From Chiloscyllium plagiosum (lineage: Eukaryota): a DNA stretch of 64,000 bases. How positions within the stretch are numbered: position 1 is the stretch's first letter; every line of letters begins with the position of its first letter. The translations under genes were made by a program, and so were the position numbers. The stretch is from positions 13,175,277 through 13,239,276 of the forward strand of contig NC_057719.1 in the NCBI RefSeq assembly GCF_004010195.1, given 5' to 3'. Below, one piece after another: positions 2,272 through 62,489 of this stretch. Below the pieces are notes generated by a model. The model did not search any database. It saw nothing but the letters and a program-made list of their open reading frames with translations, and had not been told where the DNA came from.

Positions 2272-3738
2272 CAGGCAGCTGAGAGTGCAGTAGGTGGATA
2301 CAGGTGGAGGTAATGGTGATAGGTCGCAGGGGAGGTTGGGGTGGATAGGTGGGAAGAAAGATTGACAGATGGGACAGGTCATGAGGACAGTGCTGAGCTA
2401 GAAGGTTGGAACTGAGTTAAGGTGGGGGTAGGGGAAATGGGGAAACTGGTGAAATCCACATTGATGCCATGAGGTTGGAGGGTCCTGAGGCAAATGATGA
2501 GGCATTCTTCCTCCAGGCGTCGGGTGGTAACTTCACCAACACATTCCAAGCCAACCTTAAATTCACCTGGACCATCTCCGACACCTCCCACCCCTTCCTG
2601 GACCTCTCCATCTCCATCAATGGTGACCGAGTCAACACTGACATTTTCTACATAACCCACTGACTCCCACAGCTACCTGGATTACACCTCGTCCTGCAAA
2701 AATGCTATCACTTATTCCCTATTCCTCCGCCTCGGCCGCATCTGCTCCTAGGAGGACCAGATCCATCACAGAACACACCAGATGGCCTCCTTCTTTAAAG
2801 ACTGCAATTTCCCCTCCCACGTGGTTGATGATGCTCTCCATCGCATCTCATCCACATTCCGCACATCTGCCCTCAAACCGCACCACTCCAACCGCAACAA
2901 GGATAGAACCCCCCTCGTCCTCACTTTCCACCCTACCAACCTCTGCACGCATCATCCTCCACCATTTCCGCCACCTACAAACGGATCTCACCACCACAGA
3001 TATATTTCCCTCCCCACCCCTACCTGCTTTCCGTAAAGACTGTCAGTTCATGCCGCTTAACAACCCACCCTCTCCTCCTGGCACCTTCCCCTGCAGGAAT
3101 TGCAAAACCTGCGCCCCCTCACCACCATCCAAGGCCCCAAGGAAGCCTTCCACATCCGTCAAAGTTTCACCTGCACTTCCACACGTCATTTATTGTATCT
3201 GTTGCTCCTGATGTGGTCTCCTCTACATTGGGGAGACTGGACGCCTACTCACAGAGCACTTTAGAGAACATCTCTGGGACACCCACACCAACCAACCTCT
3301 CTGCCCCATGACCGAACACTTCAACTCCCCCTCCAACTCTGCCAAGGACATATAGGTCATGGGCCTCCTCTATCGCCATTCCCTAACTACCCAATGCCTG
3401 GAGGAAGAACACCTCATCTTCCACCTCGGGACCCTCCAACACCAGGGCATCAATGTGGATTTCACCAGTTTCCACATTTCCTCTCCTCCCACCTCACCCC
3501 AATTCCAACCTTCCAGTTCAGCACCGTCCTCATGACCTGTCCCACCTTTCCATCTTGCTTCCCATCTATCCGTTCCACACTCCCCTCCGACCTATCACCT
3601 TTACCCCCACCTCCATCCACCCATTGTACTCTCAGGTACCTTCCCCCCAACCCCATTCCCCTCCCATTTATCTCTCCACCCCCAAGGCTCCCAGCCTCAT
3701 TCCTGATGAAGGCCTTTTGCCCAAAACGTCAGTTTTTC
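2272..3738 (+). mobile_element. Penelope-like element (family B) with inverted 5' segment
   Basis: 2530-3738 encodes an RT C-terminal part (PFLDLSISI) and GIY-YIG (VIYCICCS*CGLLYIGETG), ending in a decayed HHR at 3699-3734; 2272-2530 is the reverse complement of about 3385-3640. Confidence 0.9.
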
Positions 3739-8174: not shown

Positions 8175-8990
8175 TTTCAGATTTAGATTTTATTGTCACG
8201 TTTGCTCAAGTACAGGCGTACACTGAAAACAGTATAATGCTACAACACGTGGTGCCATCTTAGGTGAAAGTGAGGACTGCAGATGGGCTGAAGCAGGGCT
8301 TATGCCCGAAACGTCGATTCTCCTGCTCCTTGGATGCTGCCTGATCTGCTGCGCTTTTCCAGCAACACATTTTTCAGCCATCTTAGGTACCAAAGTGCGA
8401 AAAAACGTAGTTACAAAATAGTAAAAGAAACAAAGTTAAAAACGTTAAGCATTACCTTCATAGAATAAAGTAGAAAAGTAAAGAAATAAGGCCTTAGTTC
8501 ACTTTAAAGCCCTTCTTAATATAAACCGGAAAAACAAAGGAATACATTTAAAATCTAGCAATCTTTGATGAGTCCGCCGCATAGCTCGCTGTCCAGGAGA
8601 CTTCAGCTGCCTGTTCTTGATGCCACCACCACAGATAGTGGAGGAGCCTTCCTCACCACTCACTCTCCCCATGTCAGGCCGCGATGCCATTGTTGCTGCC
8701 AGCCCAATGACCCCCTGCTGCCTCCGGAACATTGCCGGGCAGAACCCACTCACACGCCAAGAGATCGCCATGTGCCGCTGAGAGAACGGGTCGACAGAGG
8801 GAGGTGGGGGGTTTGGGGGAGCTGCTGAGAGGATGCCCCACCAGGCGTCTGTGCTGAGGCTGGGAGTAAAGGAAAGAAGGAAAGAAACAACAAAAGAGAG
8901 AATAAAAAGGGAAAACGAGAGAGAGAAACGAGACAGAAACAAGGAAGCTGAGGCTGAAATCTCCTGCTCTGTCAGCCTGCCATCTTGGAT
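8175..8990 (-). mobile_element. Non-coding retroelement with CAAGATGGC at its 5' end and a LINE-like 3' tail
   Basis: Minus strand starts ccaagatggc (8979-8988), has a GC-rich body, ends gtgacaataaaatctaaatctgaa; related 3' ends at about 21915-22060 and 29390-29520. Confidence 0.5.
8266..8376 (+). mobile_element. 111-bp PLE-derived insertion (inverted 20-nt tail plus HHR arm)
   Basis: 12-bp TSD gccatcttaggt (8254-8265, 8377-8388); HHR ctgaagcagggcttatgcccgaaacgtcga with one core substitution. Confidence 0.85.
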
Positions 8991-13138: not shown

Positions 13139-13794
13139 CCAGGAAAGACCTAAAGAGAGAGCTCAGAAGAGCCAGGAGGAGACATGAGAAGTTGTTGGCG
13201 ATAGGATCAGGGAAAACCCTAAGACTTTCTATCGGTATTTAAGGAATAAAAGAATGACAAGAGAAGATTAGGGCCAATCAAGGATAGTAGTGGGAAGATG
13301 TGTGTGGAGTCAGAGGAGATGGGGAAGCACCAAATGAATATTTTTCAACTCTATTCTGTCTAGAAAATGACAATGTTGTGGAGGATAATACTGAGATACA
13401 GGCTACTAGACTGGGTGGGATTGAGGTTCACAAGGAAGAGGTATTAGAAATCCTGCAGAGTGTGAAAATAGATAAGTCCCCTGGGCCGGATGGGATTTAT
13501 CGTAGGATCCTCTGGGTAGCCAGGGTGGAGATTGCCGAGCCTTTGGCATTGATCTTTAAATCATCATTGTCTACAGGAATAGTGCCAGAAGACTGGAGCA
13601 TAGCAAATGTGGTTCCCCTGTTCAAGAAGGGGAGTACAGACAGTCCTGGTAATTATAGACCAGTGAGCTTTACTTCAGTTGTTGGTAAAGTGTTGGAAAA
13701 GGTTATAAGAGATAGGATTTATAATCATCTAGAAAAGAATAATTTGATTAGGGATAGTCAGCACGGTTTTGTGAAGGGTAGATCGTGCCTCACA

Positions 13795-13926
13795 AAAGGT
13801 TTGGAGGGATATGGGCAGGATGCTGGCAGGTGGGACTAGATTGGGTTGGGAAATCTGGTCGGCATGGACAGGTTGGACCGCAGGGTCTGTTTCCATGCTG
13901 TACTTCCCTATAACTCTATGACTCTA
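13795..13926 (+). mobile_element. CR1 3' UTR fragment inserted in the RT of the host CR1
   Basis: Interrupts GRSCLT/NLIEFFE; matches the 3' end at about 9403-9530. Confidence 0.85.
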
Positions 13927-15728
13927 AACCTTATTGAGTTCTTTGAGAAGGTGACCAAACAGGTAGATGAGAGTAAACCGGTTGGTGTGGTGTATATGGA
14001 TTTCAGCAAGGCGTTCAATAAGGTTCCCCACAGTAGGCTATTGTACAAAATGCGGAGGAATGGGATTGTGGGAGATATAGCAGTTTGGATCAGTAATTGG
14101 CTTGCTGAAAGAAGACAGAGGGTGGTGGTTGATGGGAAATGTTCATCCTGGAGTCCAGTTACCAGTGGTGTACCGCAAGGGTCGGTGTTGGGTCCACTGC
14201 TGTTCGTCATTTTTATAAACGACCTGGATGAGGGTGTAGATGGGTGGGTTAGTAAATTTACAGACGACACTGAGGTCGGTGGAGTTGTGGATAGTGACAA
14301 AGGATGTTGTAGGTTACAAAGAGACATAGATAAGCTGCAGAGCTGGGCTGAGAGGTGGCAAATGGAGTTTAATGCAGACAAGTGTGAGGTGATTCACTTT
14401 GGCCGGAGTAGCCGGAATGCAAAGTACTGGGCTAATGGTAAGATTCCTGGTAGTGTAGATGAGCAGAGAGATCTCGGTGTCCAGGTACACAGATCCTTGA
14501 AAGTTGCCACCAGGTTGACAGGGTTGTTAAGAAGGCATACAGTGTTTTAGCTTTTATTAATAGAGGGATCGAGGAGAGAAGAAGGTTGAGAGGTGACTTA
14601 ATAGAGACATATAAGATAATCAGAGGGTTAGATAGGGTGGACAGGGAGAGCCTTTTTCCAAGTATGATGACGGTGAGCATGAGGGGACATAGCTTTAAAT
14701 TGAGGGGTGATAGGTATAGGACAGATGTCAGAGGTAGTTTCTTTACTCAGAGAGTAGTAAGGGTATAGAATGCTTTGCCTGCAACAATAGTAGATTCGCC
14801 AACTTTAAGTACATTTAAGTCGTCTTTGCACAAGTATATGGACGTACATGGAATAGTGTGGGTTAGATGGGCTTCAGATTGGTATGATAGGTTGGCGCAA
14901 CATCGAGGGCCGAAGGGCCTGTACTGCACTGTAATATTCTATGTTCCAAAACTGGAGCACCCAGAGGAAACCCACACAGACACAGGGAGAATGTGCCAAC
15001 TCCACACAGACAGTTGCCCGAGGGTGGAATCAAACCCAGGTCCCTGGCGATGTTAGGCATCAGTGCTAACCAGTGTACCACCATGCCACCCTTAACAGAA
15101 ACCAGGAAGCTTGTTCAGGTCTCATTAATATCAAAGCTGACAGGGTCATTCCCAGGTGGATGACACCCTGCATTGCCTCAGGTTAGCTGCTGACTTTGGG
15201 ATGATATCACAGCTTCTTATTGTTGGTGTTGAGTAAAGTCACATTGTTCCAAAGGACTAATAGTAAAGTAAAATCAAACCTGATGTACTGGACACATGTT
15301 GTTGGAAGGATTTATTCTGTATAAATTCCCAACCCATGGTCTACATCAGATGAGATTCAATGATGACTGCCTGTTCACTGAGTGATGTTTGAGAAATATA
15401 AAAATGAATGCCTCTAATTTCCAGATAGGTTCCGTCTGTGTTAACATTTGCTCTCTTTGTTTTTTGTTGTGGATCCAGGTTACCAAATGTAAGAAGTGAA
15501 ATGAGTTTGATGAGTGTCAGCCTTGTTCTTGGTTCAAAGTTCTGCAACGCCTCATCAACATGTCCTCGGGGTTTAAAGCAATGTTCCTTTGCTCAAGATC
15601 ACCCAGTCTCTGAGAAGCACCCACCCTGGCAAGAGATACTGTAACTGGGGCACTCCCAACAACCACCGCAGTGGCCTGGCTACAGAATCCCTTCTTAATT
15701 GGGAGAGACTGTGGTGCCATTTCTCATC

Positions 15729-16364: not shown

Positions 16365-17045
16365 ATCTGCTGTTTGTGTGACTGGAGACCATGCTAGGTT
16401 CCACATTGTTTGTGATATATATAAATGATGTAGATGCAATTGGGGGGGGGCGAGTGGGGGACGATGGTGACATGAAGATTGGCTGTGTGGCTGACAGTGA
16501 GGGAGAAGGTCTTAGGTTACAGGAGGATATAGACCAAGTGGTGAGATGGGCAGATCAGTGACAGATGGAATTGAACTTTGACAAAGCGTGAGATGATGCA
16601 CGTTGGAAGAAGTAACAAGACAAGGGCGTACTCGATGACTGCAGGAGACAATGAAACTTAGGGGTACATAGAGATCTTGGGTACTTGTCTTTAGATCCCT
16701 GAAGCCAGTAGTACAGGCTAGTTAAGAAGGCATCCTTGCCTTTATGATGTGTGCCAAAGAGTATAAAACCAGGGAAATTAACTTGGAGTTGTACAAAACT
16801 TTGAAGAAGTGCAATATCCTGGAAAATGGGAAAAAGTGAGGACTGCAGATGCTGGAGATCAGAGTTGAGAGTGTGGTGCTGGAAAAACACAGCAGGTCAG
16901 GCAGCATTGGAGAAGCAGGAGAATTGATGTTTCAGGGATAAGCCCTTCATCAGGAGAGTGGACTAGTGTTGATTTAGGGATTAGTTTGGACTTCTCAGTG
17001 CAGACTCAATGGGATGAAGTGCCTCTTAATACTGTATGATTCTAA
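16365..17045 (+). mobile_element. Degraded CR1 RT/3' fragments with a minus-strand PLE pLTR at about 16830-16955
   Basis: INDVD and WQMEL-like relics; pLTR gaaaaagtgaggactgcagatgctgg...gcccttcatcagg with a decayed HHR. Confidence 0.7.
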
Positions 17046-19724: not shown

Positions 19725-21365
19725 GAGGACTGGCAGCTAAATATTCCAGGATACAAATGCTATAGGAATGATAGAAAGGGAGGCAAGAGCAGAGGGGGAG
19801 TGGCGTTTCTGATAAAGGATAGCATTACAGCTGTACTGAGGGAGGATATCCCTGGAAATGCATCAAAGGAAATTATTTGGGTGGAACTGAGAAATAAGAA
19901 AGGGATGATCACCTTATTGGGATTGTATTATAGACCCCCTAATAGTCAGAGAGAAATTGAGAATCAAATTTGTAAGGAGATTTCAGTTATCTGTAAGAAT
20001 AATAGGGTGGTATGGTAGGGGATTTTGACTTTGCAAACATAGACTGGGAGTACCATAGTGTTAAGAGTTTAGATGGAGAGGAATTTGTTTAAGAGTGTAC
20101 AAAACTTGATTGAGTCTTTTGAAGAAGTAACAAAGAGGATTGATGAGGGCAGAACGATTGACATGATCTATATAGACTTCAGTAAGACATTCGACAAGGT
20201 TCCCCATGGGAGACTGGTGAGCAAGGTTAGATTTTATGAAATACAGGGGGATTTGGATTTCATAGCCATTTGGATACAGAACTGGCTCAAAGGTAGAAGA
20301 CAGAGGGTGGTGGTTGAGGGTTGTTTTTCAGACTGGAGGCCGGTGACGAGTGGAGTGCCACAAGGATCGGTGCTGGGTCCACTACTTTTCACCATTTATA
20401 TAAATGATTTGGATGTGAGCATAAGAGGTATAGTTAGTAAGTTTGCAGATGACATCAAAATTGGAGGTGCAGTGGACAGCAAAGAAGATTATCCTCCCTC
20501 AGGTTACAACAGGATCTGGACCAGATGGGCCAATGGGCTGAGGAGCGGCAGATGGAGTTTAATTCAGTTAAATGTGAGGTGCTGCATTTTGGGAAAGCAA
20601 ATCTTAGCAGGACTTATACACTTAATGGTAAGACCCTAGGGAGTGTTGCTGAACAAAGAGACCTTGGAGTGCAGATTCATAGCTCCTTGAAAGTGGAGTC
20701 GCAGATAGATAGGATAGTGAACGCGGCATTTTGTATGCTTTCCTTTATTGGTCAGTGTTTTGAGTACAGGATTTGGGAGGTCATGTTGTGGCTGTACAGG
20801 ACATTGGTTAGGCCACTGTTGGAATATTGCGTGAATTCTGGTCTCCTTCTTATCGGAAAGGTGTTGCGAAACTTGAAAGTGTTCAGAAAAGATTTACAAG
20901 GATGTTGCCACGATTGGAGGATCTGAGCTATAGGGAGAGGCTGAACAGGCCGGGGCTGTTTTCCCTGGAGTGTCGGAGGCTGAGGGGTGACCTTATAGAG
21001 ATTTATAAAATCATAAGGGTCATGGATAGGATAAACAGACAAGATCTGTTGCCTGGAGTAGGGGAGTCCAGAAGTAGAGGGCATAGATTTATGGTGAGAG
21101 GGGAGAGATCCAAAAGGGACCTAAGGGACAACCTTTTCAAGTAGACGGTGGTGAGTGTATGGACTGAGCTGCCAGAGGAAGTGGCGGAGGCTGGTACAAT
21201 TGTAACAGTTAAAAAGCATCTGAATGAGTATATGAATAGGAAGGGTTTAGAGGGATATGGGCCAAGTGCTGGCAAATGGGACTAGATTAGGTTGGGATAT
21301 CTGGTCAGCATGGATGGGTTGGACCAAAGGGTCTGTTTCTGTGCTGTACATCTCTGTGACTCTAT
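19725..21365 (+). mobile_element. CR1 LINE ORF2 relic with a large internal deletion at about 20102
   Basis: APE GLYYRPP joined to [10 protein letters not shown]...[10 protein letters not shown]...KFADD and the 3' UTR. Confidence 0.95.
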
Positions 21366-35349: not shown

Positions 35350-35810
35350 TAATACGCCTTCCTACTCCCTTTCCAACATGACCCAGCTTTGGCCTCCTCC
35401 ATTGCCACAATGAACCAAACTGCAACTTGGAGGAACAATACCTCATCTTCCACCTGGGCATCCTACAGCCCGGAGGACTCAACAATGAGTTCTTCAGTTT
35501 CAAATAACCGCCCTTCCCAGCCCCTCCCCCTCCCTTCCACTCCTCCCTCTCACCTTCCGGATTCATTCCTCCCATTGACCAACCAGGTCGTATCCTCTAC
35601 CTGTCTTCACTTATCACCACTTCACCACCTTGCCGCCCCCCCACCCCCACCTTTATCTGCAGCTCCCCCCACACCCACCCTCAACCCTGAAGAAGAGTTA
35701 CATCCGAAATGTCGACTTCTCCACCTCCTGATGCTGCCTGGCTTGCTGTGCTCTTCCAGCCTCCTGCCCGTCTACTTTGGATTCCAGCATCTGCAGTTTT
35801 TCTTTTTGTC
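35350..35810 (+). mobile_element. PLE 3' fragment (family B-like) with decayed HHR
   Basis: LEEQYLIFHLGILQPGGLNNEF; ctgaagaagagttacatccgaaatgtcgac. Confidence 0.8.
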
Positions 35811-40393: not shown

Positions 40394-42270
40394 TCAAGAT
40401 TAGAGTGGTGCTGGAAATGCACAGCAGGTCAGGCAGCATCTGAGGAGCAGGAAAATCGACGTTTCGGGTAGGAGCCCTACATCAGGAATGAGGCTGGAAG
40501 CCTCGGGGGTGGAGAGATAAATTGGAGGGGGTGCGGCTGGGGAGAAGGCAGCTTGGAGTGCAATAGATGGATGGAGGTGGGGGTAAAGGTGATAGGTCAG
40601 AGAGGAGGGTGGAGTGGATAGGTGGGAATGAGGATTGACAGGTAGGACAGGTGATGAGGACGGTGTTGAGCTGGAAGGTTGGAACTGGGGTAAGTGGGGG
40701 GAGGGGAAATGAGGAAGCTAGTGATGTCCACATTGATGCCCTGGGGTTGAAGGGTTCTGAGGGGGAAGATGAGGCGTTCTTCCTTCAGGTGTTGGGTGGT
40801 GAGGGAACAGCGATGGAGGAGGCCCAGGACCTGCATGTCCTCGGCGGATTGGGAGGGGGAATTAAAATGTTGGGCCACAGGGCGGTGGGGTCGATTGGTT
40901 CGGGTGTCATGGAGATGTTCCCTGAAGCGCTCTGCGAGAAGGCATCCAGATTCCCCAATGTAGAGGAGACCTTGCCAGGAGCAACAGATACAATAAATGA
41001 CATTGGTGGAAGTGCAGGTAAAACTTTGATGGATGTGGAAGACTCCTTTAGGGCCTTGGATGGAGGTGAGGGAGGAGGTGTGGGTGCAGACTTTAAATTC
41101 CTGCGGTGGCAGGGGAAGGTGCCAGGATGGGAGGGTGGGTTGTTGGGGGGGCGTGGATCTGACCAGGTAGTCACAGAGGGAACGGTCTTTGCAGAAAGTG
41201 GGAAGATGTGGGGAGGGAAATATATCCCTGGTGGTGGGGTCTGTTTGGAAGTGGCGGAAATGTCAGTGGATGATTTGGTGTTTGCGAAGGTTGGTAGGGT
41301 GGAATGTGAGCACCAGGGGCGTTCTGTCCTTGTTACGGTTGGAGGGGTGGGGTTTGAGGGCGGAGGTGTGGGATGTGGATGAGATGCATTGGAAGGCATC
41401 TTCAACCATGTGGGAGGTCAAATTACGGTCTTTAAAGAAAGAGGCTATCTGGTGTGTTCTGTGGTGGAACTGGTCCTCCTGGGAGCAGATACTGCAGAGG
41501 CGGAGGAATTGGGAATACGGGATGGCAGTTTTGCAGGAGGTAGGGTGGGAAGAGGTGTAATCCAGGTATCTGTGGGAATCGGTGGGTTTGTAAAAAATGT
41601 CAGTGTTGAGTCGGTCGTCATTAATGGAGATGGAGAGGTTCAGGAAGGGGAGGGAGGTGTCAGAGATGGTCCAGGTAAATTTAAGGTCTGGGTGGAATGT
41701 GTTGGTGAAGTTGATGAACTGCTCAACCTCCTCCCAGGAGCACGAGGTGGGGCCGATGCAGTCATCAATGTAGCGGAGGAAGTGGTGCCGGTGTAACTAC
41801 GGAAGATGGACTGTTCTACGTAGCCAACAAAGAGACAGGCATAGCTGGGGCCCATTCAGCTGCTCATAGTTACCCCTTTGGTCTGGAAGAAGTGGGAGGA
41901 TTCGAAGGAGAAATTGTTAAGGGTGAGGACCAGTTCGGCCAAACAGACGAGAGTGTCAGTGGAAGGGTACTGGTGGGGACATCGGGAGACGAAGAAACAA
42001 AGGGCTTGGAGGCTCTGGTCATGGCGGATGGAGGTGTAGAGGGATTGGATGTCCATGATGAAGATGAGCCATTTGGGGCTGGAGAAATGAATGTCTTGGA
42101 GGAGGTGGAGGGCGTGGGTGGTGTGCCAAACGTATGTGGGGGGTGTTCCTGGATTAGGAGGGATAGGACAGTATTGAGGTATGTGGAGATGAGTTCGGTG
42201 GGGCAGGAGCAGACTGAGACAATGGGTCGGCTGGGGTGGTCAGGCTTGTGGATCTTAGGAAGGAGGTATA
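40394..42270 (-). mobile_element. Penelope-like element (family B): RT, GIY-YIG and pLTR, 5'-truncated
   Basis: MDIQSLYTSI, QTKGVTM, GPSYACLFVG, RYIDD (41761-41775), VIYCICC...LLYIG; HHR at about 40454-40489 with CUGAUGU substitution. Confidence 0.95.
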
Positions 42271-42271
42271 C

Positions 42272-43380
42272 TCAATGCTCTGACCAAATGCCTTCTTCAC
42301 TATCCTATCTATCTGCGACTCTACTTTCAAGAAACTATGAACATGCACTCCAAGGTCTCTTTGTTCAGCACCACTCTCCAGGACCTTACCATTAAGTGTA
42401 TAAGTCCTGCTCTGACTTGCCTTCCCACCTCATATTTATCTAAATTAAACTCCATCTGCCACTCCTCAGCCCATTGGCCCATCTGATCAAGATCCCGTTG
42501 TACTCTGAGGTAGCCTTCTTCATTGTCCAGTGCACCTCTAATTTTGGTATCAATTGCAAACTTACTAACTATACCTCCATTAATCACATCCATATCATTT
42601 ATATAAATGATGAAAAGCAGTGGATCCAGCACCGATCCTTGTGGCACTCCACTGATCACATGCTTCCAGTCTGAAAAACAACCCTCCACCATGGCCTGCT
42701 TTTGCCCTTCAAATTCCTTTTTTAGGTTCTTTCCTACTTTCCTTATATACTTCAAGAGCTTCATCAGTTCCCATCCTCCTAGACCTTACATTTGCTTCCT
42801 TTTTCTTTTTGACCAAGGTTATAACATCCTTGGTCATCCACCGTTTACATAACATGCCATACCAATCCTTCATTCTCCTAGGAACATGCCGCTCCTGAAC
42901 TCTTATCAACTGCCATTTGAAAATGCTCCCACATGTCTGATGTCGATTTATCCTCAAACAGCCACATCCAATCAAAATTCTCCAGTTCCTGCCTAACATC
43001 GTTGTAATTTGCCTTCCTGCAATTTAACACCTTTGCCCAAGGAGTATCTCTATCCATAAATATCTTAAAATGCATGGTATTATGATCACTACTCCTGAAA
43101 TGTTCCTCCACTGAAATTTCACTCACCTGTTTGGACTCATTTCCCAAAACCAGGGCCAGTGTAACCCCTTACCTGATTGGGCTGCCCACAGACTGTGCCA
43201 AGAAACCTTCCTGAATGGCCCTTACAATTTCTGCCCCACTCATACACCTCGCAAGAAGTCGATCCCAGTCAATGTAGGGGAAGTTAAAATCACCCACATA
43301 ACAACCCGACTGTTCTTGTATCTTTCCAAAATCTGTCTTCGAATTGTCTCCTTCCGCAGGCTCTTGGGAGGCCTGTACTC
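42272..43380 (-). mobile_element. CR1 LINE relic (APE/RT with deletions)
   Basis: [23 protein letters not shown]. Confidence 0.88.
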
Positions 43381-45339: not shown

Positions 45340-46760
45340 GGAGTCATAGTCATACAGATCCTTAGGTCCAACTCATCCATGCTGACCAGATATCTTAAAT
45401 TAATCTAGTCCCATTTGCCAGCACTTGGCCCATATCCCTCTAAACTCTTTCTATTCATTTACCCATCCAGATGCCTTTTAAATGCTGCAATTGTACCAGC
45501 CTCCACCACTTCCTCTGGCAGTTCATTCCATACACGTACCACCATCTGTGTGAAAACGTTACCCCTTAAGTCCATTTTAAAACTGTTCCCTCTCACCTTA
45601 AACCTATGCCCTCTAGTTTTGGACTCCCCTGCCCTGGGAAAATGACTTCATGATTTTATAAACCTCGATAAAGGTCACTCCTTGGCCTCCAGGGAAAAAA
45701 GCCCCAACCTACTCAGCCGTTCCCATAAACCAAACCCACCAGCCCCAGCAACAAGCTTGTAAATCTTTTCTGCAAACTTTTAAGTTTAAAAAACATCTTT
45801 CCTATAGCAGGGCATTGAATGTAGTATTCTAAAAGTGGCCACAACCACAAAATGACGTGCCAACTTCTATACTCAGTGTTCTGACCAATGAAGGAAATCA
45901 TGCTAAGTGCCTTCTTCATCACACTTTCTACATGTGACTCCACTTTTAATGAACTTTGGACCTGCACCCCTAAGTCTCTTTGTTTGGCAACACCTCCCAG
46001 GACCCTACCATTAACTGTATAAGTTCTGCCCTGGATTGCCTTACCAAAATGCAACACCTTACATTTATCTAAATTAAACTCTTTCTGTCATTCCTTGGCT
46101 CATTGACCTACCTGATCAAGACCCTGTTGTACTCTGAGGTAACCATCTTCACTGTCCACTACACCAGCTATTTTGGTGTCACCTGCAAACTTACCAACCA
46201 TACCTCCTATATTCACATCCAAATCATTTACATAAGTGATGGAAAGCAGTGGACCCAGCACTGATTCTTGTGGCACTCAGCTGGTCACAGGCCTCCAGTC
46301 TGAAAACAACCCTCTACCATCACCTCCAGTCTCCTACCTTCAAGCCAGTTGACTAGCTTCCTCTGGATCCAATGTGATCCAACTTTACTAACCAGTCTAC
46401 TGTGCCTTACAGTGCCAGTCACCCAGGTTCGATTCCATCCTCGGGTGACTGTCTGCGTGGAGTTTGCACATTCTCCCCGTGTCTGTGTGGGTTTCCTCAG
46501 GGTGCTCCAGTTTCCTTCCACAGTCCAAAGATGTGCGGGTTAGGTGGGTTAGCCATGGCAAAGTTGTCCTTAGTGTCTGAGGATATGTAGGCTAGGTGGG
46601 TTAGCCATGGGAAATATGGGGTTACAGAGATTCTATGCAGAAACATGTTGAATGCTCTGCCCTCAGCAATCTTCTTTGTCACTTCTTCAAAAGATTCAAT
46701 CGAGTTAGTGAGATATAATTTCCCACACACAAAACCATGTTGACTATCCCTAATCAGTCT
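45340..46760 (-). mobile_element. CR1 LINE RT-3' part interrupted by an HE1 SINE (+, about 46381-46636)
   Basis: LTNSIESFEE, KFAGD, LHFGKA and the CR1 3' UTR. Confidence 0.9.
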
Positions 46761-47238
46761 TGATTGACAAAGCTAGTTTATTGCATAGTACTTAATAGCT
46801 AGTTACATTGCAACAAAGTAACATGATAGTCTCTTGTGATAAATCAGACTGGCTACATTACTATAAGTTACATGAAAAATAGAACTGGAACAACTCAAAA
46901 CTGAACTGAGAAGAGGTAGACTGGTTAGCTCCTTCCAAGGACAGACCTCTATATCCTGATGAGCAGAGCCTATCTCCTAATGTCAGTTAACCATTTCAGG
47001 TTACTGATGGAAATGTGTTGCTGGAAAAGCGCAGCAGGTCAGGCAGCATCTAGGGAACAGGAGAATCGACGTTTCGGGCATTAGCCCTTCTTCTAATGCC
47101 CGAAACGTCGATTCTCCTGTTCCCTAGATGCTGCCTGACCTGCTGCGCTTTTCCAGCAACACATTTCCATCTCTGATCTCCAGCATCTGCAGACCTCACT
47201 TTCTCCTCATTTCAGGTTACTAGCCTCCTTACACAACA
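46761..47238 (-). mobile_element. Probable LTR hosting the 47006 hairpin
   Basis: Minus strand starts TGTTGTGT and has AATAAA near its end (46777-46782); no TSD seen. Confidence 0.4.
47006..47207. mobile_element. 202-bp PLE-derived perfect foldback insertion
   Basis: 78-bp perfect inverted arms (47006-47083 / 47094-47171), 36-nt tail, 14-bp TSD catttcaggttact (46992-47005, 47208-47221). Confidence 0.95.
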
Positions 47239-47552
47239 CCTCATTTTAATCAGTCTACCATTGCTGGCCAGGCTTTCAGCTGCCTGGATTCAAGGGCCTG
47301 GAGTTTTTCCCAAGATAGTCTGCCTCCCTACACTTTCTTTCTTGAAGACCACTCTTCAAAGATTATCCTGATAACTCTTCCATGATTAAGTGTCAGGTTT
47401 TACCCAATTAGCCTCCTGTGAAGCCCCTTGGAGTGTTGTATGACGTTAAGGAATCTATAGGAGAAAGTGAGGTCTGCAGATGCTGGAGATCAAAGTTGAA
47501 ACTTTATTGCTGGAACAGCACAGCAGGTCAGGCAGCATCCAGGGAACAGGAG

Positions 47553-47588
47553 ATTCGACGTTTCAGGCACAGGCCCTTCTTCAGGAAT
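47553..47588 (-). ncRNA. Minimal type I hammerhead ribozyme (family B), intact core
   Basis: AUUC-CUGAAGA-a-GGGC-cugu-GCCU-GAAA-CG-UC-GAAU. Confidence 0.85.
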
Positions 47589-47855
47589 GAGCAGAGAGTG
47601 TTCAGCAGGAGAAGATAAAAGGTAGGGAGGAGGGACTTGGAGGAGGGGAGTTGGAAGTGGAGGAGATGCGGTGGAGGGCACCGTCGACCACGTCGCCTTC
47701 CTGACCTGCAGTCTTCTTGTTGACCTCTCCGCCTCCATCCTACTCCGACCTATCACCCTCACCTTGACCTCTTTCCACCTATCACATTTCCAACTCCCCT
47801 CCTCCAAGTCCCTCCTCCCTACCTTTTATCTTCTCCTGCTGAACACTCTCTGCTC

Positions 47856-47891
47856 ATTCCTGAAGAAGGGCCTGTGCCCGAAACGTCGAAT
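47856..47891 (+). ncRNA. Minimal type I hammerhead ribozyme (family B), intact core
   Basis: AUUC-CUGAAGA-a-GGGC-cugu-GCCC-GAAA-CG-UC-GAAU; predicted cleavage after C47887. Confidence 0.88.
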
Positions 47892-48672
47892 CTCCTGTTC
47901 CCTGGATGCTGCCTGACCTGCTGTGCTGTTCCAGCAATAAAGTTTCAACGTTAAGGAATCTATAGAATTACAAGCTGATAATGTCGTGAAATGCAGCAAT
48001 GGAATTTCTGCCCACTTCCAAAGAGCACAGAGGGAATGACTTCCATGCTGTGTCCATATGCAAATGACAGAGTTAGGACAGGACAGTCTTACTGCTGTCC
48101 TGGTGAGGATGTGAAACCTACTTAGCAGCTGCTAGGAGGAATCCCCAATTCCCTATTGAACCAGCATTGCTTTGTACATCTAACCCCAGCCTGACCTCCT
48201 TTAAATTGCAGACAGCAAGCTCTCCACACTAACGTTCTTAAACAGGATGTTCAGGGCTTTTTTAGCTGGGCTTCTAACTCCCATCTGTTCTTCCTGTTTG
48301 GATGGTGCTGCTTTTCCACAATACTAACATTCCTGTTGGTGTCAACACTAATTAAGAGCCAAACCTTGCTTCTGATTCCCCTTTTTAGCAGACCAAGACT
48401 GACTAGCTTGTACAGACAGAACAACAAATGAGGACATACTGCTTTTTTTAATGAGTTGTGCACTGTTGGAGGGCTATTAAGGATTGCAATGCCAAAAAGC
48501 ACATGGAATATTTCCATATTGCAGCAAATACAGAATGTTCTTCACAGTAAATCTCCCCACGGAGATGACATTGTTGGATTCTATGATGTCCCTTTCAAGC
48601 TCCCCAGGAACTGAGGTCCATGGGAAATCTCCTAAAAGCTGTAATGAAGCTGTTGTAATGGATGGCATCCTT

Positions 48673-48986
48673 GATTAGATTAGATTATTTACAGTGTGGA
48701 AACAGGCCTTTCGGCCCAACAAGTCCACACCGCCCCGCCGAAGCGCAACCCACCCATACCCCTACATTTACCCCTTACCTAACACTACGGGCAATTTAGC
48801 ATGGCCAATTCACCTGACCTGCACATCTTTGGACTGTGGGAGGAAACCGGAGCACCCGGAGGAAACCCACACAGACACGGGGGGAACGTGCAAACTCCAC
48901 ACAGTCAATCGCCTGAGGCGGGAATTGAACCCGGGTCTCTGGTGCTGTGAGGCAGCAGTGCTAACCACTGTGCCACCGTGCCGCCC
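48673..48986 (-). mobile_element. HE1/V-type SINE, young full-length copy
   Basis: Reverse complement close to 23794-24108. Confidence 0.95.
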
Positions 48987-49377: not shown

Positions 49378-49510
49378 TTCCTCATGAAGAGCTTTTGCCC
49401 GAAACATTGATTTTCCTGCTCCTCGGATGCTGCCTGACCTGCTGTGCTTTTCCAGCGCCACTCTAATCTAGACTCTGGTTTCCAGCATCTGCAGCCCTTG
49501 TTTTTACCTT
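49378..49510 (+). mobile_element. PLE pLTR fragment with decayed HHR and tail
   Basis: ctcatgaagagcttttgcccgaaacattga...ccagcatctgcagcccttgtttttacct. Confidence 0.8.
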
Positions 49511-51278: not shown

Positions 51279-51482
51279 TGGAGAAAGTGAGGACTGCAGA
51301 TTCTGGAGTTCAGAGTCGAGAGTGTGGTGCTGGAAAAGCACAGCAGGTCAGGCAGCATAGGAGCAGGAGAGTCAACGTTTTGGGCTCTTCATGATGAAGG
51401 GCTTCTGCCTGAAACTTCAATTCTCCTACTCCTCAGCTGCTGCCTGACTGGCTGTGCTTTTCCAGCACCACATTCTCGAAAA
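51279..51482. mobile_element. Foldback PLE-derived insertion, older
   Basis: Inverted arms, about 37-nt tail on the left, TSD ggttgaatg (51270-51278, 51483-51491). Confidence 0.85.
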
Positions 51483-52133: not shown

Positions 52134-52225
52134 CAGCATTCCTGAAGAAGGGCCTGTGCCCGAAACGTCGAATCTCCTGTTCCCTGGATGCTGCCTGACC
52201 TGCTGTGCTGTTCCAGCAATAAAGT
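52134..52225 (+). mobile_element. 92-bp HHR-only PLE-derived insertion
   Basis: 15-bp TSD tgcagcttacactta (52119-52133, 52226-52240); matches about 47855-47944. Confidence 0.93.
52138..52173 (+). ncRNA. Minimal type I hammerhead ribozyme (family B), intact core
   Basis: Same motif as 47856-47891; predicted cleavage after C52169. Confidence 0.88.
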
Positions 52226-52274
52226 TGCAGCTTACACTTAGCCATACTAATGCAGGATTCTGCTTGATCATTTG

Positions 52275-53982: not shown

Positions 53983-54410
53983 GAAGTGGGTACTGCAGAG
54001 GCTGGAGATCAGAGTGGTGCTGGAAAAGCACAGCAGGTCAGGCAGCAGCCGAGGAGCAGGAAAATCGACGTTTCGGGCAAAAGCCTTTCATCAGGAATAG
54101 AGGCAGGGAGCCTCTGGCGTGGAGAGATAAATGGGAGGGGGGTGGGGCTGGGCAGAAGGTAGGTGAGAGTGCGATAGGTGGATGGAGGAAGGGGTAAAGG
54201 TGATAGGTCGGAGAGGAGGGTGGAGCAGATAGGTGGGAAGGAAGATTGACAGGTGGGACAGGTCATGAGGATGGTGCTGAGCTGGAAGGTTGGAACTGGG
54301 TAAGATGGGGGGGAGGGGAAATGAGGAAACTGGTGAAGTCCACACTGATGCCCTGGGGTTGAAGTGTTCCGGGGCAGAAGATGAGGCGTTCTTCCGCCAG
54401 GGTAGTGAGG
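53983..54410 (-). mobile_element. PLE 3' fragment (family B) with HHR at 54063-54098
   Basis: Minus strand attc-ctgatga-aaggcttttgccc-gaaacgtc-gatt. Confidence 0.9.
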
Positions 54411-60709: not shown

Positions 60710-61908
60710 ATAGAACCATAGAGTCATAGAGATGTACAGCATGAAAACAGACTCTTCGGTCCAACCCATCCATGCCGACCAGATATCCCAACCCAATCTA
60801 GTCCCACCTGCCAGCACCTAGCCCATATCCCTCCAAACCCTTCCTATTCATATACCCATCCAAACGCCTCTTAAATGTTGTAATTGTACCGGCCTCCACC
60901 ACATCCTCTGGCAGCTCATTCCATACACGTACCACCCTCTGCATGAAAAAGTTGCCCCTTAGGTCTCTTTTATATCTTTCCCCTCTCACCCTAAACCTAT
61001 GCCCTCTAGTTCTGGACTCCCCNNNNNNNNNNNNNNNNNNNNNNNNNNNNNNNNNNNNNNNNNNNNNNNNNNNNNNNNNNNNNNNNNNNNNNNNNNNNNN
61101 NNNNNNNNNNNNNNNNNNNNNNNNNNNNNNNNNNNNNNNNNNNNNNNNNNNNNNNNNNNNNNNNNNNNNNNNNNNNNNNNNNNNNNNNNNNNNNNNNNNN
61201 NNNNNNNNNNNNNNNNNNNNNNNNNNNNNNNNNNNNNNNNNNNNNNNNNNNNNNNNNNNNNNNNNNNNNNNNNNNNNNNNNNNNNNNNNNNNNNNNNNNN
61301 NNNNNNNNNNNNNNNNNNNNNNNNNNNNNNNNNNNNNNNNNNNNNNNNNNNNNNNNNNNNNNNNNNNNNNNNNNNNNNNNNNNNNNNNNNNNNNNNNNNN
61401 NNNNNNNNNNNNNNNNNNNNNNNNNNNNNNNNNNNNNNNNNNNNNNNNNNNNNNNNNNNNNNNNNNNNNNNNNNNNNNNNNNNNNNNNNNNNNNNNNNNN
61501 NNNNNNNNNNNNNNNNNNNNNNNNNNNNNNNNNNNNNNNNNNNNNNNNNNNNNNNNNNNNNNNNNNNNNNNNNNNNNNNNNNNNNNNNNNNNNNNNNNNN
61601 NNNNNNNNNNNNNNNNNNNNNNNNNNNNNNNNNNNNNNNNNNNNNNNNNNNNNNNNNNNNNNNNNNNNNNNNNNNNNNNNNNNNNNNNNNNNNNNNNNNN
61701 NNNNNNNTGTGAGACATGGTTTCCCAAGCACAAAGCCATGTTGACTATCCCTAATCAGTCCTTGCCTTTCCAAATACATGTACATCCTGTCCCTCAGGAT
61801 TCCCTCCAATAACTTGCCCACCACCGAGGTCAGGCTCACTGGTCTATAGTTCCCTGGCTTGTCTTTACTGCCCTTCTTAAACAATGGCACCACGTTAGCC
61901 AACCTCCA
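60710..61908 (-). mobile_element. Young CR1 LINE (RT to 3' end) spanning an N gap
   Basis: VVPLFKKGSKDKPGNYRPVSLTS...QHGF and the CR1 3' UTR. Confidence 0.93.
61023..61707. other. Assembly gap (N run)
   Basis: 685 N. Confidence 1.
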
Positions 61909-62489
61909 ATGAGGTGCCAGAAGACTGGAGGTTCAGACATGAGAGTTTCCAGGTTGCAGAACAGCTTCAGGCTCCCACAACAAAGGGCCAAAGAACTACC
62001 ACAAACATTCTAATTACACAACAGAATATTGATGTAAATGTGGCACCATATGAAGACTTATTAAGTCCATTCATTTCACATTTCAGCATGTCGAGAAATT
62101 TAACACAAGAAGGTATGAAATTTAATCAAAGGAGACACGGCTTCATTCATAATTAATGTCTACTGGCTGGCAGATGGGAGAACTGAAGGTGGGAAGAATT
62201 CACAAACAGATCTTTGAGATTCTGATGCGGTTTTGTCAAGCTTTTGTCAAGCCAGAGATGACTTGATGCCAGAAAGAGCACTACAAACTAATCACTGCAA
62301 ATTAATTACTGCAAACTAATCACTAGGCAAACCAAACTAAAAAAAACATGGTGTTTGCTTAAGGGGAACATAAGGTTCTATTGTTATGACGATGAGTCAC
62401 AGCCGCAGAATATTCCAGGCATTTTTTAACTTTCAATTCTAAACTGTGTTTTTAAAAGAAGACTCCTTCAGAGAACTTAGGAAAACCAA

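What the first reader, a model, noticed from the sequence alone, without database searches (positions are those of the whole stretch)
47443..47965. Ambisense double-hammerhead element: an intact HHR on each strand within 490 bp
Seen: intact cores at 47553-47588 (-) and 47856-47891 (+), about 160-bp near-perfect inverted arms, a 16-18 bp TSD and no coding capacity. Inference: a transcript from either strand carries one ribozyme plus its antisense copy, so it folds either into a long dsRNA rod (ribozyme off, Dicer/ADAR substrate) or into an active HHR. The layout recalls ambisense ribozyme pairs in viroid-like RNAs but derives from a PLE.
Basis: partly seen in the sequence, partly recalled or inferred. 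Interest (0 to 1): 0.7.

Follow-up and report, generated by a model that had tools for sequence, protein, structure and literature searches.

The report
Heritable hairpin Penelope passenger in shark
This mirror-image stretch is one of at least 310 near-identical copies of a non-coding hitch-hiker of a Penelope-type jumping gene; its two tiny ribozyme motifs are predicted to stay locked in a long hairpin rather than cut, so it is not viroid-like, but the family likely shows how these elements copy two RNAs into one DNA break.

Summary
The anatomy is real: 168-nt arms (98%), a target duplication, a hammerhead motif on each strand. Corrections: the minus-strand motif has lost its G10.1-C11.1 pair; both are minimal, dimer-only Penelope-element (PLE) hammerheads; forcing either out of the rod costs about 65 kcal/mol and its complement is always transcribed first, so a rod/ribozyme switch is unlikely. 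Opposite-strand pairs of such hammerheads and inverted PLE ends are published. The element is the 3' end of a young RT/GIY-YIG PLE (19,590 exact end-motif matches; 24 of 48 resolved insertions are two-ended). Not found in print: the inversion joint is inherited (310 exact copies). Sampled copies derive from plus-strand RNA read through the uncut ribozyme, show no A-to-G excess, and often carry up to 3.1 kb of captured DNA. All 57 two-ended insertions pair one 'tail' end with one tail-less end, and in 8 the second arm came from another RNA: twin priming on two RNAs. This copy likely arose when the two cDNAs annealed through the inverted arm. The scan noted twin priming before on other shark DNA; its notes showed no fixed-joint family. 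No cleavage or locus-specific transcription was shown.

The parts
47443..47460 (+). Left target-site duplication (14-nt core 47445-47458; the outer 2 nt at each end also match the element)
   Evidence: D7; family TSD mode 14 nt
47459..47494 (-). 36-nt PLE 'tail' (between the two inferred RT start sites), present only at this end
   Evidence: map; same tail follows the right end in 35 of 90 family copies
47495..47659 (-). Inverted pLTR arm, 165 nt (parent reference positions 2666-2502)
47553..47588 (-). Minimal type I hammerhead, helix I 4 bp, helix II 4 bp with G-U instead of G10.1-C11.1 (change at 47565), no helix III; cut would be after C47557
47647..47695 (-). 49-nt piece of the parent's RT ORF (parent 1659-1707), joined to the arm by microhomology (joint A, in 82 of 90 sampled copies)
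47683..47706 (+). Fixed inversion joint (joint B): 310 exact genomic copies, reversed-pattern control 0
47694..47949 (+). Forward 3' end of the parent PLE: last codons, stop at 47702-47704, 3' UTR/pLTR, ending at priming site 1 (47949)
   Evidence: 98.8% identical to the 3' end of the RT/GIY-YIG ORF in L103
47854..47859 (+). Initiator-like hexamer; its A (47856) is also the first base of hammerhead helix I and the modal 5' end of short family insertions (likely transcription start; inferred)
   Evidence: 52 of 90 arms end 88-96 nt before site 1; 8 of 12 other window hits start within 4 nt; Inr consensus recalled
47856..47891 (+). Minimal type I hammerhead with all core residues, extra A between positions 9 and 10.1, ACGU palindrome in place of helix III; predicted cut after C47887
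   Evidence: definition from PMC4209133
47948..47965 (+). Right target-site duplication (core 47950-47963)

Best explanation
The element is a very young copy of a non-coding family built from the 3' end of an RT/GIY-YIG Penelope-like element, likely mobilised in trans by that element's protein, and its two hammerhead motifs are predicted to be passengers held shut in a 165-bp rod. Steps: (1, shown) a source RNA of plus polarity carries captured DNA, an inverted pLTR arm, a fixed loop and a forward pLTR with tail. (2, inferred) The helper protein nicks both target strands 14 nt apart and primes both 3' ends, one at site 1 and one about 35 nt further 3' at the tail end; the tail/no-tail pairing is shown (57 of 57). 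(3, shown for 8 copies) The two cDNAs can come from different RNAs. (4, shown) The first cDNA runs through the uncut ribozyme, the loop and the inverted arm. (5, inferred) Here the second cDNA (tail plus arm) annealed to the complementary copy of the inverted arm in the first, which gave a seamless 487-bp hairpin between 14-nt duplications. The ordinary 150-230-bp mirror stumps of the same subfamily arise the same way from the helper's own 5' end, joined end to end.
For: Parent ORF with RT and GIY-YIG, 3' end 98.8% identical. 310 exact copies of the joint; 82 of 90 sampled copies share both joints; 14 private changes in 35,626 bases. 88 of 90 end at site 1 (53) or the tail end (35), with no shared right flanks. 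Two-ended insertions: 33 of 33 in the family and 24 of 24 in a sample taken in genome order pair tail with no-tail; none pair like with like. Second arm unlike the copy's own first strand: L070, L001, L008, L199, L205, L209, L211, L213. Left ends of window-type copies vary from tail position 36 to 45, like fresh priming, and this copy lacks the SNPs of the one lineage whose left arm carries a full tail. Folding energetics. In vitro, a PLE protein nicks and extends both strands, starts at two internal sites that bound the tail, is predicted to be a dimer and does not need hammerhead cleavage (PMC11167929).
Against: No intermediate was observed; the annealing step rests on 6 seamless plus 2 near-seamless of 33 two-ended copies (5 more join in a second inverted arm), and most first strands read on into the flank, so the splint is not required. 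The source loci were not found. The family is reticulate (one loop with three left flanks; one left flank with eight loops) and I could not order these events. Several long second arms (L019, L055, L058, L065) adjoin a forward helper segment and fit fold-back equally well. PMC11167929 saw no difference in start site between the two strands in vitro and did not report the pairing. About 40% of family copies have no resolved TSD, many because of N runs.
Confidence: 0.8

Rival explanations
1. Fold-back self-priming: the inverted arm is copied from the same molecule, for instance by self-priming on an antisense template, as proposed for Adineta PLEs.
For: PMC3846280 (passages) reads palindromic joints this way. 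Some loops are near-perfect palindrome centres (2 of 30 at 2454/2454, 2 of 30 at 2480/2485). Arms of short mirror stumps are identical or differ by 1-2 bases.
Against: In 8 copies the second arm carries sequence or SNPs absent from the copy's own first strand. Fold-back does not explain a tail on the inverted end when the forward end lacks it (25 family cases).
Confidence: 0.08
2. One reading: an ambisense, viroid-like RNA that switches between rod and active ribozyme on either strand.
For: Both cores are strict in 70 of 73 family copies that cover them and 30 of 30 cargo-anchored copies. A PLE hammerhead can be protein-assisted (PMC11167929).
Against: The copies are too young for conservation to mean selection. 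About 65 kcal/mol penalty, complement transcribed first. Dimer-only motif; minus motif mutated here; one lineage amplified with a dead minus core (5 copies). All resolved right ends fit plus-strand templates. Only 2 of 90 arms end near the cut site. Viroid-like agents are circular RNAs without a DNA counterpart (PMC10162972).
Confidence: 0.04
3. The copies spread at the DNA level (MITE-like transposition, gene conversion or segmental duplication), and the loop variants are DNA palindrome-centre deletions.
For: Long inverted arms with a TSD look MITE-like; eight loop types on one flank fit central deletion of a long palindrome.
Against: Ends are asymmetric and fall at RT start sites, 5' ends are ragged, TSDs are 11-18 nt and differ per copy, 19 of 90 copies have a helper ORF piece jumped onto the 5' side (read by eye). 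DNA-level deletion stays open for the loop variants only.
Confidence: 0.08

Closest known systems
Minimal hammerheads of metazoan PLE pLTRs, including opposite-strand pairs 100-700 bp apart (Cervera & De la Pena 2014, PMC4209133; parts 1-2 of 4 read)
   Same: Core boxes, extra base between 9 and 10.1, short helix I, palindrome instead of helix III; two motifs on opposite strands about 300 bp apart.
   Different: Helix II is 4 bp (7-8 in Schistosoma). The paper treats opposite-strand pairs as truncated PLEs; no inherited family with a fixed joint in the parts read.
EN+ PLE insertions with inverted pLTR, one-sided tail and TSD (PMC3846280, PMC8557442, PMC2377424; passages)
   Same: Head-to-head pLTRs, 30-40-nt tail at one end, TSD, capture of host DNA between pLTRs and mobilisation in trans.
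   Different: There the inversion belongs to single insertions; here it has become part of the template. The strict tail/no-tail pairing and two-RNA origin are not in the passages read (they say 'often' or 'optionally').
Poseidon PLE of Anolis in vitro (PMC11167929; parts 1-2 of 4 and passages)
   Same: Two internal RT start sites bounding the tail; both strands nicked and extended; uncut RNA is the template.
   Different: Parent here has the CX2-5CXXC linker that Poseidon lacks; pairing of the two sites with the two nicks was not reported.
Non-LTR retrozymes and non-autonomous Chlamys such as MRC1 (10.64898/2026.07.22.740005, part 1 of 5; PMC8557442 passages)
   Same: Non-coding, PLE-derived, multi-copy, share the 3' end of an autonomous family.
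   Different: Those are head-to-tail repeats; this family ends in an inverted hairpin and carries up to 3.1 kb of captured DNA.
Viroid-like RNAs with paired ambisense ribozymes (PMC10162972; passages)
   Same: One ribozyme motif on each polarity; rod fold.
   Different: Chromosomal with TSD, exact mirror copies, dimer-only motifs, one polarity copied, no evidence of circles.

Membership tests
PLE minimal hammerhead (PMC4209133) | Core boxes, extra nucleotide between 9 and 10.1, palindromic 15.2-16.2, helix I of 4-5 bp | tested here: met
   both strands
PLE minimal hammerhead (PMC4209133) | G10.1-C11.1 pair, plus-strand motif | tested here: met
PLE minimal hammerhead (PMC4209133) | G10.1-C11.1 pair, minus-strand motif of this copy | tested here: not met
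   G-U wobble, private change at 47565; met in 70 of 73 family copies
PLE minimal hammerhead (PMC4209133) | Self-cleavage as dimer | not testable with these tools
   cofold of two 36-mers gave a different duplex; no bench data
EN+ Penelope-like element derivative | Parent with single ORF, RT followed by GIY-YIG, sharing the pLTR | tested here: met
   L103: RVT_1 33.2 bits (cut-off 29.6), GIY-YIG 21.4 bits (just under cut-off 22.6); 3' end 98.8% identical
EN+ Penelope-like element derivative | Inverted pLTR, one-sided 30-40-nt tail, TSD | tested here: met
Neptune/Nematis clades | CX2-5CXXC linker before GIY-YIG | tested here: met
   CX4CX2C in the parent ORF; definition in PMC8557442
Neptune clade | Phylogenetic placement with named Neptune elements | not tested
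   no named Neptune sequence among the 120 hits listed; no tree built
Non-autonomous retrotransposon family | Many dispersed copies with shared internal structure, separate TSDs, no enzyme of their own | tested here: met
Non-LTR retrozyme | At least two head-to-tail units with same-strand hammerheads | tested here: not met
   one sense motif per strand in this element; tandem forms occur in L037, L171, L203
Non-LTR retrozyme | Circular RNA intermediate | not testable with these tools
   no suitable reads
Viroid-like ambisense RNA | RNA-only replication, both polarities used as template | tested here: not met
   genomic with TSD; 88 of 90 right ends at plus-strand priming sites
MITE (DNA transposon) | Fixed symmetric terminal repeats and fixed TSD length | tested here: not met
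   asymmetric, variable ends; TSD 11-18 nt

The most novel reading that the evidence does not exclude
A class of non-autonomous PLE passengers in which the terminal hairpin is the selected device: the antisense arm keeps the hammerhead shut, can pair with the helper's pLTR, and gives the two cDNAs of a dimeric, asymmetric RT (one subunit at site 1, one at the tail end, each on its own RNA) a built-in complementary splint. That would let any transcript ending in such a hairpin, with kilobases of host cargo, be inserted, and would settle how PLE inverted ends and one-sided tails form.
Probability: 0.3. Interest if true: 0.62.

Novelty: new variant of a known kind. Interest (0 to 1): 0.36.

Why it matters
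The double hammerhead itself is ordinary: thousands of mirror-image PLE ends are expected in this genome. The family is useful because it is young, numerous and marked by SNPs and joints, so it records the steps of PLE integration, which the papers read call undefined: two nicks 14 nt apart, two start sites used in strict opposition, two RNAs, template jumps to the helper, read-through of a 165-bp duplex and of an uncut ribozyme. It gives ready substrates for the existing in vitro PLE assay, and it warns that paired-ribozyme screens for viroid-like RNAs will pick up such elements in shark data.

Tried and rejected
Rfam at gathering thresholds: no hit. Sequencing-run search: no RNA holder listed. 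Reads on 46700-48700: in X21 (about 2 in 100 of the run read) 2,269 reads lay on the repeats and none on the unique flanks; X22 gave none (no test); the DNA-like run X15 also lacks most flank bins, so the runs may be another individual or species; transitions were balanced (A>G 20, T>C 27, C>T 19, G>A 20) but multi-copy mapping makes this uninformative. Expression and editing of this locus and of the cargo-bearing source RNA remain untested. DNA search with the 62 nt after the cut site was blank because common words are skipped. Search for the source locus: 11 + 20 longer stretches showed shared DNA back to a (GT)n run 3.1 kb upstream but no copy with the founding TSD. Hammerhead-cut RNA as template: rejected, 2 of 90 arms end at 60-64 nt and none at 62. 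Hammerhead dimer as a required pairing device: weakened, since Naiad PLEs form inverted ends without canonical hammerheads (PMC8557442). Literature searches for a fixed-joint hairpin family or twin priming in PLEs gave none that describes it; most subscription papers are not held, Lunse et al. 2017 (PMC5785218) could not be read, Repbase was not available and no supplements were opened. In one search the rows L057, L053, L043 and L052 were misregistered by indels and were not counted. L053's local inversion was left out of the private-change count.

Full report
Observation. The window holds inverted arms at 47492-47659 and 47785-47952 (168 nt, 98%) and an 18-nt direct repeat at 47443-47460 / 47948-47965. 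The plus strand folds into one rod (-392 kcal/mol, z = -32.8). Hammerhead core boxes lie at 47860-47887 (+) and 47557-47584 (-). The minus motif has U for C11.1, a change seen in only this copy of 90. Both motifs lack helix III and carry the ACGU palindrome and the extra base between positions 9 and 10.1 that define the minimal PLE hammerhead (PMC4209133, parts 1-2 of 4 read). That paper also reports pairs of such motifs 100-700 bp apart on opposite strands, no cleavage by a single motif and low cleavage by dimers. Rfam has no hit.

Parent. The forward half (47694-47949) is 98.8% identical to the 3' end of an ORF in L103 that has RT, a CX4CX2C linker and GIY-YIG; the parent's stop is at 47702-47704. 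The nearest named proteins are from carpet sharks (83% to a Chiloscyllium protein), so the genome is likely a shark's. The linker places it with Neptune/Nematis rather than Poseidon (PMC8557442, passages); no tree was built. The spacer's left half is a 49-nt inverted piece of the parent's RT region. The left end carries a 36-nt tail that the right end lacks, the known PLE signature (PMC8557442; PMC3846280, passages).

Base rate. A 22-mer at the subfamily's 3' end occurs 19,590 times. I analysed 90 of the first 100 matches. Of 48 insertions with a resolved TSD (24 arms had none), 24 have an inverted second end and 4 have strict cores on both strands. 52 of 90 arms stop 88-96 nt before site 1, at the first strand of helix I; only 2 stop at 60-64 nt and none at the cut site (62). 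Eight of 12 other hits in the window start within 4 nt of the same base. That base is the A of an initiator-like hexamer (consensus recalled; PLE promoters with initiator motifs are described in PMC2377424 and PMC3846280, passages). I infer that the helper RNA starts at the hammerhead and is often primed near its own 5' end, which gives the short stumps. A double hammerhead is therefore routine here.

What is special. The 136-nt spacer had 40 of 40 scored hits at 100%, and the 24-nt inversion joint occurs 310 times (control 0). Of 90 copies mapped (89 fetched plus the window's), 82 share both joints and 8 have the older form with a contiguous inverted ORF. Private changes are 14 in 35,626 bases (the sample is selected for an exact joint, so it leans young). 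Right ends fall at site 1 (53) or the tail end (35) in 88 of 90, and no two right flanks match; left sides are ragged. So the templates were plus-strand RNAs, copied through the uncut sense hammerhead and through a 165-bp duplex. About a third carry the same captured DNA, shared for up to 3.1 kb and including a further sense hammerhead that was also read through. The cargo/arm joint occurs 303 times; all of the first 30 end in a hairpin with both cores, with six loop types (12, 10, 3, 2, 2, 1), and adds two more types (14 of 20 cargo-anchored loci had the hairpin, 6 ended at an older pLTR inside the cargo). The window's loop also occurs with two other left flanks. The history is reticulate and I could not order it or find the source loci.

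Mechanism. In the family, 33 insertions have an inverted second end: 25 pair a site-1 right end with a tailed left end and 8 the reverse. With the 24 above this is 57 of 57 (p about 1e-17 against an even split). TSDs centre on 14 nt (22 of 50). In 8 copies the second arm has sequence or SNPs that the copy's own first strand lacks (L070, L001; L008; L199, L205, L209, L211, L213), so it came from another RNA; 19 of 90 copies have a forward piece of the helper ORF jumped onto the 5' side (by eye). This fits the in vitro work on an Anolis PLE: both strands nicked and extended, two internal start sites that bound the tail, a predicted dimer, cleavage not needed (PMC11167929, parts 1-2 of 4 and passages). 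For the window copy, the left end sits at tail position 36, in the range of freshly primed ends, and the copy lacks the SNPs of the lineage whose left arm has a full tail. Five other copies have the same seamless form and two a nearly seamless one. A cDNA of the forward arm is complementary to the cDNA of the inverted arm, so annealing of the two explains the seamless joint. This step is inferred.

Forcing the hammerhead costs 64.9 (plus) and 67.4 (minus) kcal/mol, and because the arms point outwards the complement is transcribed first on both strands. No switch is expected. A>G changes are 5 in 6,066 arm positions against 3 T>C in 6,086, so copied RNAs were not hyper-edited; other transcripts could still be edited or diced, which I could not test. 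Five copies spread with a dead minus core. Viroid-like agents are circular, RNA-only and use both polarities (PMC10162972, passages); none of this is shown here. Reads gave no locus-specific evidence (see Tried and rejected).

Novelty. Parts and layout are published. I found no description of an inherited fixed-joint hairpin family, of strict end pairing or of two-RNA origin, with the limits of the library, no Repbase and no supplements. Earlier scan notes already propose twin priming for shark mirror stumps (I had that reading); look-ups by sequence, place and family words were blank. Other papers seen: 10.64898/2026.07.22.740005 (part 1 of 5), PMC6765202 (passages). Verdict: new variant of a known kind, interest 0.36.

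Noticed in passing
window 46992-47221: A second, independent mirror insertion 220 bp upstream: 79-nt perfect arms, turn inside the hammerhead, 14-nt TSD, tail on the right and site-1 end on the left, no complete core.
   Followed up: partly
window 52137-52233: A 97-nt stump of the same young subfamily (98.9%), starting 1 nt before helix I, with an intact plus-strand core at 52142-52169.
   Followed up: partly
window 8288-8373, 16826-16955, 35680-35796, 40409-41796, 49378-49498, 51280-51467, 53984-54229, 2291-3730: Older PLE ends (70-86% identical), some with ORF remnants; most short ones start at helix I.
   Followed up: partly
window 47936-47941: AATAAA lies 8 nt before priming site 1; polyadenylation would fall inside the tail. 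Not tested.
   Followed up: no
L015, L041, L043, L062, L068, L203; forward form in L037, L171: Tandem unit of pLTR + tail + first 142 nt after it; inverted in these copies it gives three or more hammerheads per insertion, retrozyme-like.
   Followed up: partly
L114 (G000:C3:74654012-74657625); also G000:C2:130798331-130800787: Two family copies 3.6 kb and 2.4 kb apart in opposite orientation; in L114 they are the two ends of one insertion with a 13-nt TSD.
   Followed up: partly
L195, L196, L198, L200, L201, L210: Copies of the captured DNA that end at an older pLTR inside it, most with a tail that the long form lacks there: an earlier source or a template switch.
   Followed up: partly
L204, L207, L208, L211, L213: Cargo 5' ends stop at one (GT)n run 3.1 kb upstream, perhaps the source RNA's start.
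   Followed up: no
window 46403-46562 and 48795-48954: Inverted 160-nt repeats (84%) on either side of the element, SINE-like by recall.
   Followed up: no
window 13291-14547, 20073-20923, 42330-42785, 60802-61932: LINE-like RT remnants (CR1/L2-like by recalled motifs, not searched); an N run lies near 61.0-61.7 kb. No host exon was identified.
   Followed up: no
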